Source: Paraspadella gotoi (taxonomy: Eukaryota > Animalia > Chaetognatha). Taken from it: a stretch of 64,000 bases of DNA. Under the pieces are notes generated by a model. The model made no database searches and was not told where the DNA came from. It saw nothing but the letters and a program-made list of their open reading frames with translations. Shown one piece after another: positions 17,150 through 52,600 of the stretch. The position numbers and the translations under genes are program-made. Position 1 is the stretch's first letter; the number at the start of each line of letters is the position of its first letter. The stretch lies in assembly GCA_051294375.1 (NCBI GenBank), contig CM119271.1:14080770-14144769 (forward strand), given 5' to 3'.

Positions 17150-19301
17150 TCAATCCCCGAACCGCTGTTGCAAGTACTTGTTGCCGGAACTTTCGTCGTA
17201 TCCGAACTGCCCGTAGAATTTGACGAGAGATTCCGAGCATTCGAGGGAGACCTTGTAGCAGCCACGGACTCGCCCCAGCAACGTCAGCGTCTCCACCAGC
17301 AGCTTGCCCAGCTCGCGTCCGCGGTGGGAATCGTCGACCACGACGTCCTCGACGCGACCGCGGAAGCCTGAGGGAAAAGGGAGGTGGGGGGGGGGCGATT
17401 GAATAAGAAGTAGGATCTTAGTAAAGAAGAGAGAAAGAAGCTGCACTTATTCGCCCTTACTCCCCCGCTCTCCTCCTTTTCCTCCTGACTTTTCCTCTCA
17501 CTCCCTCTCTCAGTCTACCTTCCCTCTGGCTCACATTCGCTCTCTCTCTCCCTCGCTCTCTTCTCTTTATCCCTCCCTCCACCATCTCTCTCTATCCCTC
17601 CTCCATTTCCCTCTATCCACCCTACTCCCTCTCTCTCTCTCTCTCTCTCTCACCGGCGTCGTGAATGAATTTGTACTCGATCGCCAGCGTCGCGGACCCA
17701 ACGATCCTCTCGTCAGCTTCGTCTTCAACGACGACGACGAAGTAGGCGCCGCCATCGCCGGCGCCACCTCGCATGGAATCGAAGCGGCGTCTAAAGGCGT
17801 CGGGTGAGACGACGCCCACGCGGGTGAGGAAGGAGAGAAGACGGAGAAAGCCTGAGGTAAGGAGGTAAGGAGGTGGGGAAATTCGTTTGTTATTTTTTTC
17901 ACAATTAAGCATTAAATATAACTCAACGAATCCCCCCCCCTCACCCTTTTCCCTGTCCTCCAAGTGCAAGGGTCTCATCTTCAATCCGTCTCCAGGCATT
18001 TGAGGCGAAATGGGATTCTTGAATTTCTTTCGAGATTCTTGACTCCAGGGGAGAGAGGCGATGATTGAGGGAGAAAAGAGGAATCCGGCGTCGTCGTCGT
18101 CGTCGCGGTGAGCGAAGCCGTTGGAGGACGATAATGCTGAAAAGGAGAACCGTGTGGCGGTATATTCACACCGCCTCATGTCCACCATCGTTCAGCCAAA
18201 TCCACTGGCTCAGAGGGGGAACACACCATCCCAGGCGTAGTGTTCCATCCACAGTCGTAACGACTTCCCTCTGCGTTGGCAAAGCGAGACCGTCCTAGGG
18301 TAGCCGCGCCAGTGACTGGAGGCGTCACTGAGGGTCGAAAGCCCCCAAAGCCAACAGTGAGATGCCCCATCCCAATGGGCATCACAGGCAACCCAGCTGT
18401 TGCCATAAGTGGCGAGCCCTTCTATGGAACACGCAACCTTCTCAGGGTACGCTACGACAAACGCCTATGCCCTGCCAACTTCGCGTACGCTATGACAAAC
18501 GCCTATGCCCCTGGGGTACGCTATGACAAACGCCTATGCCCCCACAACTCGTGCTCTCTCTCTCTCCCACTATGGTGACAGTCTTGTCAGACACCTCTCA
18601 GGCTTGAGGAACCTGAGTGATGTCTTGGCCCGGGGATCCTGTGGCGGTATATTCACACCGCCTCATGTCCACCATCGTTAAGCCAAATCCATTGGCTCAG
18701 AGGGGGAAAACTCCATCCCAGGCGTAGTGTTCCATCCACAGTCCTAACGACTTCCCTCTGCGTTGGCAAAGCGAGACCGTCCTAGGGTAACCGCGCCAGC
18801 GACTGGAGGCGTCACTGAGGGTCGGAAGCCTCCAAAGCCAAAAGTGAGATGCCCCATCCAAATGGGCATCACAGGCAACCCGGCTGTTGCCATAACCGAT
18901 CCTTTTTTATTTCCATCGATTGTAAATCATTGAAAATTATTCCTTGTGATTTGATTGTCGCATGGGGGAGACTAATATTATTTCTTTACGTCACTGTCAC
19001 AACCTTCAACAAACAGCTCACACAGCACGCAAACAGCAGTCACCCGACCACCAACGGCCAAAGGCACACCGCTTTTGAAGTCACGTTTATCCCCGTTTAA
19101 ATTGGCACAATGGTCCCCATTTTTGGCACAATGGTCCCCATTTTTGACGCCGGAATGATCTCCGTTTTTCATATAATAATGAACACCATTTTTGACGTCG
19201 GAATTGACGCCATTTTTTGCCTCGGGATGAACGACATTATTGACGTCGGGATGTACGCCGCTTTTGATTCGAACGCCGTTGACTTGAAGCTCCTGCGCCA
19301 T
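17150..19301 (-). CDS. GNPNAT1: Glucosamine-6-phosphate N-acetyltransferase (GNA1) with repetitive N-terminal extension, 4 coding exons
   Basis: PGDGLKMRPLH, IVGSATLAIEYKFIH, RGRVEDVVVDDSHRGRELGKLL, GCYKVSLECSESLVKFYGQFGY are GNA1/GNAT motifs. First exon assignment (19301-~19070) is inferred from phase. Confidence 0.92.
18153..18894 (+). mobile_element. TRIM (non-autonomous miniature LTR retrotransposon), family A copy 1, in GNPNAT1 intron 1
   Basis: LTRs 18153-18407 and 18640-18894 (TGTGGCGG...TTGCCATA); TSD ACCG at 18149-18152 and 18895-18898; primer-binding site (PBS) TGGCGAGCCC at 18410; no coding capacity. Confidence 0.95.
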
Positions 19302-19683
19302 CTGGCCCACGTTACGGTTCGTTAAGTAAGAATGAGAATGGAATATATATAGAATTGTTGTTTATACTATAGCAGCGTTGACGATATAAAAACTGGAATA
19401 AAAAAAAATCAACCATGAGACGCTTGTTTTAAATTGTAAGTAGCATAAGAGGATTAACCTTGCACGAAAAATTACACGACTATAAAAAATTAACAATGAT
19501 AACTTTAAAAGTTATTAGCCTCGATTGAAGAAAAAATATATAGTATATAGTAATGGTATGTATATAGAACTCGGCGCAACGTGTAAAAGTACGAAAATAC
19601 TGAAATGAAATAAAAAACAAGCGACGGAGAAAATCGAAAGGCGAGAGAATTTAAAAGATGAGGACGACCCCACAACAATAATA

Positions 19684-49673: not shown

Positions 49674-52600
49674 TCACTGTGTCAAGTGTTTCGCCGTGAC
49701 GATAAACTGCGGCGCTGCGCCAGTCAACTGTGGCGCCACGAGCTCTTGAAATACGAATTCCGGATTGGCAGCGACGCCGCGCAAAGTGGCGCCGAAGGAA
49801 GTAGCGCTGAAGGAGGCGTCGGAAGAGACGGCGCCGCCGGAAGTGAGCAAGACGGTTTGAATCGTCGGTTGCGGTTGAGCGGAGATCGAAGGATTGACGT
49901 CCACCGAAATGTTTTTAGATGCGATGGATTTGGAGGCGATAGATTTAGAGGCGTTAGATTTAGAGGCGATAGATTTAGAGGCAATAGATTTATGTGCGAT
50001 GGATTTGCCAGTTGAGACAAAAGACGAGACGGTCTCGAGCGGAGGAGGCTCGAAAAGGCTGACGTCCTTGTGACTCGTTGTCACGTGAATCTAAGAAGTA
50101 AAATAAGATTTACTAATTTCCTCCCCTTTCTTTTTCCTTCTCTTCTTTTTTCTCCCTCTCCTTTTCTTTTTTCTCCCTCTCCTTTTCTTTTTTCTCCCTC
50201 TCCTTTTCTTTTTTCTCCCTCTCCTTTTCTTTTTTCTCCCTCTCCTTTTCTTTTTTCTCCCTCTCCTTTTCTTTTTTCTCCCTCTCCTTTTCTTTTTTCT
50301 CCCTCTCCTTTTCTTTTTTCTCCCTTTCCTATTTGCCTTTCCTCCCCTAGAACTCGATCACCTTGAGTCTCCGCCGCTCAGAGAATCTCTGTTCGCAAAA
50401 CTCGCAGACGAAATCTTTCCTCTTGTCGTGGACCGAAGCGATGTGGTACTTGAGGTGATGACCGCGACCGAAGGCCCGACCGCACTCGGAGCAAACGTGC
50501 TTCTTTACCTGAGAAGCAGAAGAAGAATGGGTTTGTGGCGAATCCTAAATTCGTTCAAGTCAGCATGTCCCATAAGCTTGGACAGCTAAATACTCGCTTA
50601 CCAACCGTGAGTTTCGGGTTCAATCCCCTCACGGTCACGTGTTATGGTGTTGGCATAAACATTAAATCAAACCAGTGACATAGAGAGGTCACTTGAGGTC
50701 CAAAGCCCTGATCGCCAACTGTCAGGACAAGCCTCACAACCTGAGCATCGCACATGCCTCCCCGTTGCCATAGGTTATCTTTATCTTGAATGGCCGAAAC
50801 AATTGATTCAACAACCAAGTAAATCACCTTTTCGTGGACGACTTCGGTGTGCCGCTGCTGATGAGCCTTGTAGGAAAAGGCTTTACCGCACTTGGGGCAG
50901 ACGTAAGGTCGCAGTTTGAGGTGGCAGCAATCGATGTGCTTTTGCAGCGCCGTCTTTAAACAGCAACGGAAGTCGCAAAAGGGACAGCTGAGGGCTTTCT
51001 GTTTGAAGGGAAGGTTTGGGAAGAAGGGGAATGCTATTTAATAAGAGTAAATTGAAGAAAGATACCTCATTCCACTTGGTGCCCCGATCGTGACCGCTCC
51101 GCTGGCAAGACTCAGAATAGACACGATCGCAGGTCAGGCACTTTCTCTCCTGCTTGAATTCGTGGGCCGAGAGCTGGTGATGCTTGAGGCCCGTGAGGTG
51201 AGTGAAACCTGGGAAGTTGGAAGGGTAAGTTAAAGTTTAAGATGGGATTCGAAATGAAAAAAAGGCACGAACCTTTTCCGCAGATTGGGCAGAGGTGGCA
51301 GGGTAGTCCTTCGTGGTCGGCTTTTTGGTGCTCTAGCAGTAGATACCTAATGATTAATTAGTAATGAAAATGTGAAAAATAAAGAAAGAAAGTTGAAAGA
51401 AGAAAGAAACAAAGGAGACTCACCTCGTTACAAACTGTTTCTCGCACTGATCGCACGGAAACTTCCTCACTCGACCGTGAACGTTCTTCACGTGAACTCT
51501 CAAGTTGGTGATCGCCTGTGATGCGATAAAAAAAAAAAATATTTAAGAAAATTTAAAGGCTGCGACGCAATCATGAGGTTTGGTTATTTTAAAAGAATCT
51601 CACCTTGAAGGTTCTCCCGCAAAACTCGCAAACTCTGGGGTCAACATCTTCGTCGCAACCCGGTTCGCCTTCAACATCATCGCCGTCGCCGTCATCATCG
51701 GCGTCCTTGGCGGAGCCGCGCGTTTTCGCCCAGACGGGCCGGTGGTTGGCGAATCGCTTCGGCGGCGCCCTGTCCCGCCTCGGGCGGATCGAGGCGGCGA
51801 CAATACGCGAGGCGGACGAACGAGTTTTCATCGACTGGACGGGAATGTCGGCAGCTCCGGCGCCGCGTCGAGCGGACGACGAGTTTTCTTCGTCATTCGT
51901 GACGTCGACTGAATTCGACGCCGCGATTTCCTTTTTAACGTCCATCGGCGCCGACGCTGCTTCGTCTCCGGGCGGCGTCGGCACGAGAAAGGAAACAAGC
52001 GGCGGTGTCGACGGAGGAGAAGTCAAGTCGGGCAAGGTCGGCGCGAGCGAGATCGGCACTGGCTGGTTATGAGGCGGACTCGGTGGTTCGGGCGGGGTCT
52101 CGGAAGGTTGCGGCGGTGGAGGCGAATCGGGTTCGATCTTTATCTCCGTACGACTTTCAATTTCTACGAGAACTTCGAGAATGCTGAGAAGCTCTTCACC
52201 CACGACGGGCAAAGCGGCAGCGGCGTCGTTGTTATCAGCGTCGGTGGCAACTGCGTGGCAATAAAGTTCATCGTAGCGTCTAGAGGCGGCGCTGACTTCA
52301 GTTCCGCTCGTCGCTAACGCGTCCTTTGGTTCGGGACAAGTTTAAGAATATAATTTGCCTTTTCCATCATTTCTTCTTTTTTCTTTTACTTTTACAAGTA
52401 ACTTTTTTTCCCCGTCAATCGTTTTTTTCCTTTTTTTTGTCTTTCTCTTCCCTCCCTTTTGTTTTCCTTTTTAATTTTCTTTTATTTCTATTTATTTCTC
52501 TCTCCCCCCCCCATTTTCCTCCCCCCCAACCTTAAGCACTCCCCACGATCCCGAGTTGGCGACGATCCTGGCGACGGCGTGAAGAAGCGCGAGTCGGTAG

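What the first reader, a model, noticed from the sequence alone, without database searches (positions are those of the whole stretch)
18153..50772. A guild of at least three TRIM families with Pol III-type (tRNA-like) LTRs sharing one mobilisation signature
Seen: six insertions, each with a clean 4-bp TSD: family A (18153-18894, 26969-27706, solo 46120-46320), family B (48164-48811, solo 22449-22636) and family C (solo 50534-50772). LTR interiors differ between families, but each has a tRNA-like A-box/B-box region about 30-50 nt from the LTR start. B reads GCGGCCA-TTGGTGCTGGAGG...TCGCCTCCCA...GGTTCTAGCCC-GG-TGGTCGT (tRNA-Gly-like); C reads TCGCTTACCAA...GGGTTCAATCCC; A reads TGGCTCAGAGG...GTGTTCCATCCAC. 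A possible fourth family starts at 63882. Known: Helenus TRIMs carry tRNA-derived LTR sequence and animal members make 4-bp TSDs; Cassandra and Ajax carry 5S-derived sequence. Inference: these are SINE-like, Pol III-driven parasites of one Gypsy-type helper that have diversified here and reach about one insertion per 10 kb.
Basis: partly seen in the sequence, partly recalled or inferred. Interest (0 to 1): 0.75.

Follow-up and report, generated by a model that had tools for sequence, protein, structure and literature searches.

The report
Three twister-ribozyme mini-retrotransposon families
This animal DNA holds six short protein-free jumping-gene insertions of three families whose end repeats carry a tRNA-type promoter motif followed by a predicted self-cutting "twister" RNA (decayed or deleted in some copies), so they likely spread through a self-cut RNA circle, a design that our literature searches found described only for plant elements with a different ribozyme.

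Summary
In detail: six insertions, 6 of 6 with a 4-bp TSD at the stated coordinates. In A and B the core, five helices and a pseudoknot that is swapped between families are present (0 of 20,000 shuffles each). C's solo copy is decayed, but C-like contigs of a same-species RNA run show the missing core bases. Caveat: Rfam and two phage-trained twister models give only sub-significant scores, and helix P1 is stunted. The tRNA claim is uneven: B is tRNA-Gly-like (24-28 bits), C weak, A only box motifs. One shared helper is unproven: A and B share a PBS, A and C share termini. Best reading: Helenus-like TRIMs that work as animal LTR retrozymes, releasing 416-487-nt RNAs; cleavage, circles and Pol III are untested. 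This scan already noted such elements many times elsewhere in this genome. Two published wasp Helenus LTRs show a hammerhead at the same place (read by eye).

The parts
18153..18894 (+). Family A full element A1 (LTR 18153-18407, internal 18408-18639, LTR 18640-18894), TSD ACCG
18275..18355 (+). Twister-type motif in A1 5' LTR, damaged (cleavage triplet TAG instead of TAA; one T1 mismatch)
18410..18419 (+). PBS of A1 (TGGCGAGCCC)
18762..18842 (+). Twister-type motif in A1 3' LTR, core intact; predicted cut after 18788
22449..22636 (-). Family B solo LTR, TSD CGCT, about 45 nt of 3' LTR sequence missing
22530..22603 (-). tRNA-Gly-like head of B solo (24.2 bits)
22455..22528 (-). Twister-type motif in B solo, core intact, one mismatch in P4
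26969..27706 (+). Family A full element A2 (LTR 26969-27222, internal 27223-27453, LTR 27454-27706), TSD AGAG
27022..27065 (+). A-box-like (27022-27032) and minimal B-box-like (27057-27065) motifs of A2 5' LTR; no tRNA fold detected
27090..27170 (+). Twister-type motif in A2 5' LTR, core intact; predicted cut after 27116; weak Rfam twister-P1 match 27122-27165 (15.8 bits, E=1)
27225..27234 (+). PBS of A2 (TGGTGAGCCC)
27575..27655 (+). Twister-type motif in A2 3' LTR, T2 pseudoknot G changed to A at 27608; predicted cut after 27601
46120..46320 (+). Family A solo LTR, TSD ATAT; 49-nt deletion removes most of the ribozyme
48164..48811 (+). Family B full element B1 (LTR 48164-48394, internal 48395-48578, LTR 48579-48811), TSD AACA
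48195..48267 (+). tRNA-Gly-like head in B1 5' LTR (27.0 bits); the 3' LTR copy is 48612-48683 (27.9 bits)
48269..48342 (+). Twister-type motif in B1 5' LTR, core intact; predicted cut after 48292
48396..48405 (+). PBS of B1 (TGGTGAGCCC), same as family A
48566..48578 (+). Polypurine tract of B1 (family A has only a weak one: 7-8 purines in the last 18 nt against 13)
48685..48758 (+). Twister-type motif in B1 3' LTR, core intact; predicted cut after 48708
50534..50772 (+). Family C solo LTR, TSD GGTT, inside a 319-nt intron (50507-50825) of a minus-strand zinc-finger gene
50567..50638 (+). Weak tRNA-Gly-like head of C (12.3 bits, E=0.26)
50632..50714 (+). Decayed twister-type motif of C (P3 and the T-CCA-AAGC loop kept; TA in place of GA, AC in place of GC); approximate limits
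   Evidence: related RNA contigs
63882..64000 (+). Candidate fourth family head (TGTAGCGG start, A/B-box-like motifs), cut by the window end; unverified

Best explanation
These are three families of non-coding miniature LTR retrotransposons whose LTRs hold a tRNA-type head followed by a type-P5 twister motif; the head likely drives RNA polymerase III transcription, the two twister copies of a full element are predicted to cut out a unit-length RNA (485-487 nt in A, 416 nt in B), and that RNA would be circularised and copied by the reverse transcriptase and integrase of a likely Gypsy-type helper. Shown: structure, TSDs, shared PBS of A and B, twister core and helices with between-family covariation, tRNA-Gly likeness of B, presence of the families in an RNA run of the same species. 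Inferred: Pol III use, cleavage, ligation (by analogy with RtcB-type ligation of retrozymes, PMC7229834), the helper. A circle removes the need for a terminal R repeat, which cleavage in both LTRs would destroy (model of PMC4918200). In A and B helix P1 is only 8 and 6 nt and self-complementary, so the two LTR copies may have to pair with each other to cut (speculative; C seems to have an ordinary P1 hairpin).
For: Twister layout taken from a published table and checked on natural examples: 20 of 20 tested phage loci with this order of parts pass Rfam's Twister-P5 gathering score. The layout occurs 5 times in the window, always in A or B LTRs, against 0.07 per shuffled 64 kb; 0 of 20,000 dinucleotide shuffles of an A LTR and 0 of 20,000 of a B LTR give even the core. 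T1 pseudoknot is CCG/CGG in A and CGG/CCG in B; P3, P4, P5 differ in sequence but pair in both. For C, contigs of RNA run X1 restore P4 pairing (50694-50695) and one loose end at 50633 reads GA-TGG, the partner of C's CCA loop, a third T1 pair. A-family contigs in X1 carry the intact core (13 and 12 contigs at the two deletion edges of the A solo) and no variant above 8% falls in B's catalytic core. B head scores 24-28 bits on a tRNA-Gly model; B-box motif at position 84-90 in 9 of 9 LTRs; no T4 run on the sense strand of any of 7 elements. Animal Helenus PBSs match Gypsy elements and give 4-bp TSDs (PMC10886601); plant LTR retrozymes have 4-bp TSD, PBS, PPT and circles (PMC4918200).
Against: No model reaches significance on the motifs: Rfam twister-P1 15.8 bits E=1 for A, nothing for B or C, no Twister-P5 hit; my phage-trained models give 8.2-8.5 bits, E about 2, with chance hits ranking as high or higher, and R2 aligns B in another register. 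My descriptor was written after seeing the sequence. P1 is 6-8 nt against 14-30 nt in 43 of 43 phage examples, and the first P2 pair is C.A in family A against T-A in 43 of 43. In the folded B transcript P3 and P5 have pairing probability 0.01, and P4 of A 0.01-0.14, in pseudoknot-free folding. Only 5 of 9 LTRs keep an intact core; neither full A copy has two intact motifs. Circular monomers are not unusually stable (z -0.9 and -1.5). Absence of T4 is not significant against shuffles (P 0.2-0.8). Family A has no tRNA fold and a weak PPT. The tRNA-Gly training set was picked with a B-derived motif, which inflates B's score. No helper element was seen.
Confidence: 0.58

Rival explanations
1. The twister is active but serves as a 3'-end maker: Pol III starts at the head of the 5' LTR, the 5' copy mostly misfolds and is read through, and the 3' copy cuts in place of an oligo-T terminator, leaving a linear RNA with an R repeat of about 100 nt that goes through ordinary LTR reverse transcription without a circle.
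For: No T4 in any of 7 elements, whereas many Helenus LTRs have a T run right after the tRNA part (seen by eye). B has a competing fold that removes P3 and P5. Cassandra starts and ends within the same repeat (PMC10886601). Twister variants set RNA ends in Perere-3 (PMC8501958).
Against: Both LTR copies have the same sequence and similar predicted helix probabilities, so there is no evident reason for one-sided cleavage; LTR-embedded hammerheads in plants give circles.
Confidence: 0.17
2. Plain Helenus-type TRIMs: the twister-like segment is an inactive relic inherited from a common ancestor and plays no part in today's transposition.
For: Sub-threshold model scores; stunted P1 and C.A pair in A; 4 of 9 LTRs damaged, deleted or decayed in the core.
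Against: Core bases are kept and helices covary between families whose other LTR sequence does not align by BLAST; expressed A and B copies keep the core; the damage seen fits post-insertion decay (A1 LTRs differ by 4.7%); twisters without P1 still cut, if inefficiently (PMC8501958).
Confidence: 0.15
3. Retrozymes without a Pol III promoter: the elements are transcribed by read-through from host genes or by Pol II, the ribozymes cut them out, and the tRNA-like head is a remnant or an RNA-stability element (most plausible for family A).
For: Family A has no tRNA fold and short box spacing; many X1 contigs run from the LTR edges into unrelated flanks (13 at 46120, 42 at 48394); the insertions sit in a gene-dense region, C in an intron.
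Against: The B-box motif sits at the same LTR position in all three families (about 0.5% per family by chance in a 30-nt band); B keeps acceptor- and T-stem pairing, and the common RNA variant at 48265 improves the acceptor stem.
Confidence: 0.1

Closest known systems
Helenus TRIMs / TRIMp3 (Kojima 2024, PMC10886601; main text parts 1-5 of 6 read, supplement parts 1 and 5-10 of 11 read, plus string searches)
   Same: Under 1 kb, two LTRs, PBS, tRNA-like boxes in the LTR, 4-bp TSD in animals, several families per genome, solo LTRs.
   Different: The paper describes no ribozyme ('twister' 0, 'ribozyme' only in a reference title). PBS TGG(C/T)GAGCC and terminus TTGCCATA do not occur in the supplement. 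Boxes here are more degenerate and a twister motif follows the head.
Helenus-2_SyJa and Helenus-2_SyUm (Synergus wasps; Data S1 of PMC10886601)
   Same: By my reading of the printed consensus, a hammerhead core (CTGATGA...GAAA, GTC triplet, complementary helices I-III and loop-loop pairing) lies directly behind the tRNA-like box of the LTR: the same layout. Read by eye, not scored by a tool.
   Different: Hammerhead instead of twister; tRNA-Trp PBS; not remarked on in the paper.
Plant LTR retrozymes (Cervera et al. 2016, PMC4918200; passages read)
   Same: Non-coding LTR elements with a self-cleaving motif in each LTR, PBS, PPT, 4-bp TSD, solo LTRs, proposed Gypsy helper.
   Different: Type III hammerhead, tRNA-Met PBS, 600-1000-nt circles shown by experiment, no tRNA-like head described; plants. 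The same group states that metazoan retrozymes lack LTR, PBS and PPT (PMC7761336, PMC7229834; passages).
Type-P5 twister ribozyme (Rfam RF02684)
   Same: Order P2'-GA-T1'-P1-UAA-P2-GC-P3-P4-U-T1-AAGC-P4' and both pseudoknots.
   Different: P1 of 6-8 nt, long P3, other T1 and P2 sequences; no Rfam hit at E<=10 while phage examples score 39-64 bits.
Twister variants of Perere-3 in Schistosoma mansoni (PMC8501958; passages)
   Same: Twister in an animal retrotransposon, tolerant of a weak P1.
   Different: Autonomous non-LTR element, single type-P1 motif at the 5' end, P1 completed by the target site.

Membership tests
TRIM (non-autonomous LTR element) | Two LTRs, under 1 kb, no coding capacity | tested here: met
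   A1 742, A2 738, B1 648 nt; longest ATG-started frame 92 codons. C is only a solo here; an X1 contig goes back from 50725 to 50568, as a two-LTR or circular form would.
TRIM (non-autonomous LTR element) | PBS and PPT inside the LTRs; short TSD | tested here: met
   PBS motif in 3 of 3 full elements; PPT clear in B, weak in A; TSD 6 of 6. That the PBS fits tRNA-Arg(ACG) is recalled, not tested; the only fetched tRNA with a matching 3' end was a phage tRNA-Lys.
Helenus / TRIMp3 | tRNA-derived sequence with boxes A and B in the LTR | tested here: inconclusive
   Met for B (with circular choice of training set), weak for C (E=0.26), boxes only for A; Rfam tRNA and ARAGORN negative for all.
Helenus / TRIMp3 | 4-bp TSD in animals | tested here: met
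   host is an animal by gene content, group not resolved
Helenus / TRIMp3 | Transcription by RNA polymerase III | not testable with these tools
   Only assembled contigs of one RNA run were available
Helenus / TRIMp3 | Identity with a catalogued family | tested here: not met
   PBS and terminus strings absent from the supplement; no similar LTR seen by eye in parts 1, 5-9. Repbase and Dfam themselves could not be searched.
Twister ribozyme, type P5 | Conserved core (UAA, GC, U-NNN-AAGC, GA) with helices P2-P5 and pseudoknots T1, T2 | tested here: met
   5 of 9 LTRs intact (A1 3', A2 5', B1 5', B1 3', B solo); shuffles 0 of 20,000; P2 has a C.A pair in A and a bulge in B
Twister ribozyme, type P5 | P1 helix closing the cleavage site | tested here: inconclusive
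   No intramolecular hairpin predicted for the 8-nt P1 stretches; intermolecular 6-bp duplexes of -11.0 and -9.7 kcal/mol; phage P1 14-30 nt
Twister ribozyme, type P5 | Rfam RF02684 gathering score | tested here: not met
   own models E about 2
Twister ribozyme, type P5 | Self-cleavage | not testable with these tools
   needs in vitro assay or raw reads
LTR retrozyme (Cervera 2016) | Self-cleaving motif in both LTRs with PBS, PPT, 4-bp TSD | tested here: met
   B1 has both motifs intact; A1 and A2 one each; activity predicted only
LTR retrozyme (Cervera 2016) | Ribozyme is a type III hammerhead; PBS for tRNA-Met | tested here: not met
   No hammerhead hit in Rfam scans; PBS differs. Works like one, but is not a member as defined.
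LTR retrozyme (Cervera 2016) | Circular RNA of unit length accumulates | tested here: inconclusive
   Go-back joints in X1 (48575 to 48183, 48538 to 48193) fit a circle and equally an internal-to-3'-LTR read

The most novel reading that the evidence does not exclude
Animals have a class of Pol III-driven LTR retrozymes in which the ribozyme is an exchangeable part (twister in three families here, hammerhead in two wasp Helenus families), and in families A and B the twister is an obligate dimer that cuts only when the palindromic P1 stubs of the two LTRs pair, so that exactly one unit-length circle is released per full transcript.
Probability: 0.28. Interest if true: 0.87.

Novelty: new variant of a known kind. 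Interest (0 to 1): 0.7.

Why it matters
It would join two separately described designs, tRNA-promoter TRIMs (Helenus) and ribozyme-bearing LTR retrozymes, in animals, where LTR retrozymes are stated to be absent. It would give the twister ribozyme, whose biological roles are mostly unknown, a defined job, and supply short natural substrates (B1, 648 nt, both motifs intact) for a direct test of cleavage, dimer dependence and circle formation. It also shows that standard Rfam scans miss such motifs, so TRIM libraries may hide more ribozymes.

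Tried and rejected
No whole genome was held: no copy count, no helper search. Rfam on the window and on single LTRs found no tRNA, 5S, hammerhead or Twister-P5 match; ARAGORN 0. 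Strict 11-mer A-box plus B-box scoring: C and the 63882 candidate 1 of 300 shuffles, A 3%, B 32%, so the box pair alone does not carry B. Phage-trained twister models R1 (43 sequences) and R2 (13 with P3; chosen after R1 failed) were not significant. From 106 pattern matches in viral loci I kept 43 unique rows with full P2 and P4 pairing for R1; the A-type T1 pattern gave 3 loci, none a convincing twister. tRNA-Gly model: 31 of 36 loci held a tRNA-Gly, 22 used; nothing for A or the 63882 head. A general phage tRNA set was fetched but not modelled. Metagenome scans: 0 exact matches to family A's core; 9 loci for a short-P1 pattern, none with LTR-like repeats or full P2. Lack of T4 runs is not significant against shuffles; circular folding energy is ordinary. 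Sequencing runs: 3 listed, one holder (X1, share 0.65), none on record as RNA; spliced contigs with 0 mismatches show it is RNA of this species. Summed contig depth is far higher on A and B LTRs (up to 46,000 and 75,000) than on the host gene (59-161) and steps up near B's head, but contig depth cannot show level, start or strand, so I do not use it. X2 and X3 cover no part of element C. Two protein searches did not place the host beyond 'animal'. Literature: 9 searches found no paper on twister in LTRs or TRIMs; 'twister'+'Helenus' 0 papers; subscription journals, Repbase and Dfam are not covered, and supplement parts 2-4 and 11 of PMC10886601 were only string-searched.

Full report
Observation. 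The six elements are real. Self-BLAST of the window finds the A and B repeats and all six have exact 4-bp target-site duplications at the stated ends. A1 and A2 are LTR(253-255)-internal(231-232)-LTR; B1 is LTR(231/233)-internal(184); LTR pairs are 95-99% identical. Families A and C share termini TGTGGCG...GTTGCCATA, B has TATGG(C/T)GG...CTCTTCA. All three full elements carry TGG(C/T)GAGCCC one or two bases behind the 5' LTR; B has a clear polypurine tract, A a weak one; no frame over 92 codons. RNA run X1 confirms the edges independently: 13 contigs enter the A LTR at 46120 and 42 leave the B LTR at 48394 from or into unrelated flanks, which also shows many other insertion sites. C lies in a 319-nt intron of a zinc-finger gene whose three next introns are 64-77 nt. 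The host is an animal by gene content; its group was not resolved and no assembly was available.

The tRNA-like heads. ARAGORN and Rfam see no tRNA. A pattern from B's anticodon and T arms retrieved 36 viral loci, 31 of them with tRNA-Gly genes. A model from 22 of these ranks the three B heads first in the window (24.2-27.9 bits, E<=8e-5), C fourth (12.3 bits, E=0.26, level with chance hits), and finds nothing in A or at 63882. The choice of training set favours B, but acceptor-stem pairing was not part of the pattern and is kept. The minimal B-box (recalled consensus GTTCNANNC) is at LTR position 84-90 in 9 of 9 LTRs, never on the antisense strand. With 11-mer boxes, A has a good A-box but a poor B-box 34-35 nt away, B a good B-box but no good A-box. 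So a Pol III promoter is plausible for all, well grounded for B, weakest for A, and untested.

The missed feature. A weak Rfam twister-P1 match in an A LTR (15.8 bits, E=1) led to a circularly permuted reading: P5, P2', GA, T1', P1, TAA, P2, GC, P3, P4, T-T1-AAGC, P4', P5'. The parts agree with published twister tables (PMC8501958, passages), and 20 of 20 tested phage loci with this order pass the Rfam Twister-P5 gathering score. My descriptor, written after seeing the sequence, hits 5 sites in the window, all in A or B LTRs, against 0.07 per shuffled window and 0 of 20,000 shuffles for each of an A and a B LTR. A and B share no BLAST similarity yet both keep every core base; T1 is CCG/CGG in A and CGG/CCG in B; P3, P4 and P5 differ in sequence and still pair. 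C's solo keeps P3 and the T-CCA-AAGC loop but has TA for GA and AC for GC; in X1, C-like contigs restore P4 pairing and one loose end shows GA followed by TGG, the T1 partner (single contig for the loose end, a second contig suggests the same through scattered insertions). Five of nine LTRs have an intact core; A1's 5' and A2's 3' copy each have core changes, the A solo lost 49 nt of the motif. X1 contigs of family A carry the intact core across that deletion.

Results against. Neither Rfam nor two models trained on phage type-P5 twisters give significant scores (8.2-8.5 bits, E about 2); R1 aligns A end to end in my register, R2 aligns B in another. P1 is 8 nt (A) and 6 nt (B) against 14-30 nt in 43 phage examples, and A has C.A where all 43 have T-A. 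Pseudoknot-free folding gives low probability to P3 and P5 of B and P4 of A. The P1 stubs cannot form hairpins but form 6-bp intermolecular duplexes; a shrunken hairpin is self-complementary by nature, so only the two central bases are extra evidence for a dimer. Predicted circles are not unusually stable and the lack of T4 runs is not significant.

Mechanism. Most likely: transcription from the head (Pol III inferred), cleavage in both LTRs between T and AA (predicted after 27116/27601, 18301/18788, 48292/48708; units of 485, 487, 416 nt), ligation to a circle, tRNA-primed reverse transcription around the circle and integration by a helper with 4-bp TSD, as proposed for plant retrozymes (PMC4918200, passages). 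Gypsy as helper is by analogy (PMC10886601). Go-back joints in X1 fit a circle or a normal internal-to-LTR read equally. Rivals: ribozyme as 3'-end maker for a linear RNA; dead relic in plain Helenus-type TRIMs; read-through transcription without Pol III. 'One helper' is open: A and B share the PBS, A and C the termini, C's PBS is unknown.

Known relatives and novelty. Helenus (PMC10886601; main text parts 1-5 of 6, supplement parts 1 and 5-10 of 11) matches in layout but reports no ribozyme, and our PBS and terminus strings are absent from its data. Following a lead from earlier scan notes, I read two Synergus Helenus LTRs and see a hammerhead directly behind the tRNA-like box (by eye). Reviews state that metazoan retrozymes lack LTR, PBS and PPT (PMC7761336, PMC7229834; passages); a 2026 preprint on animal retrozymes has no mention of twister (passage search). 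Further passages were seen in PMC6765202, PMC10085705, PMC13725137, PMC5680766 and PMC13570524; other papers only as listings. Nine searches found no report of twisters in LTR elements, within the limits of the library. The scan itself has noted such elements in at least a dozen other places of this genome; these are unreviewed notes, not independent support, and my twister reading was recorded before I saw them. Verdict: a new variant that combines two known kinds; interest 0.70.

Noticed in passing
PMC10886601 Data S1, Helenus-2_SyJa-LTR and Helenus-2_SyUm-LTR: A type III hammerhead with loop-loop pairing appears to lie right behind the tRNA-like box in these published wasp LTRs; the paper does not mention it. 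Read by eye only.
   Followed up: partly
window 50560-50640 versus run X1: Most X1 contigs on C's head differ at 50590, 50597, 50599 and continue into other sequence on both sides: a related, better preserved C-like subfamily with a cleaner A-box.
   Followed up: partly
window 36505-36777: 273-bp near-palindrome with a GA-repeat centre, MITE-like; Rfam mir-5014 match of 61.6 bits is below gathering (101) and probably reflects the hairpin.
   Followed up: no
window 23083-23267: Degenerate 185-bp palindrome, 68% self-complementary.
   Followed up: no
window 28310-28398 and 49297-49385; 4440-4520 and 62903-62983; 34239-34365 and 39300-39423: Three further short dispersed repeat pairs (94%, 96%, 80% identical), not related to families A-C.
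   Followed up: no
window 24994-31424: Transposase-like frames on the minus strand: CENP-B/HTH domains at 27741-28298 and 28744-29148, and two long frames at 29365-31424 that look hAT/BED-like by eye but have no Pfam hit; element A2 and a 20-nt tandem array (25874-26210) lie among them.
   Followed up: no
window 18440-18545, 27257-27360, 48430-48520: Internal regions hold short tandem duplications (three units of about 29-35 nt in A, two of about 50 nt in B).
   Followed up: no
whole window: Very compact gene cluster, with the recognisable genes (GAPDH, phosphorylase kinase gamma, cytidylyltransferase, many C2H2 zinc-finger genes) on the minus strand and introns of 64-77 nt where measured; five of the six insertions are on the plus strand.
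   Followed up: no
L001-L104 (viral contigs): At least 43 unique phage type-P5 twister candidates, some in tandem on one contig (L071 four copies); 20 of 20 tested pass Rfam RF02684.
   Followed up: partly
window 63882-64000: Possible fourth family head with A/B boxes 44 nt apart, cut by the window end.
   Followed up: partly
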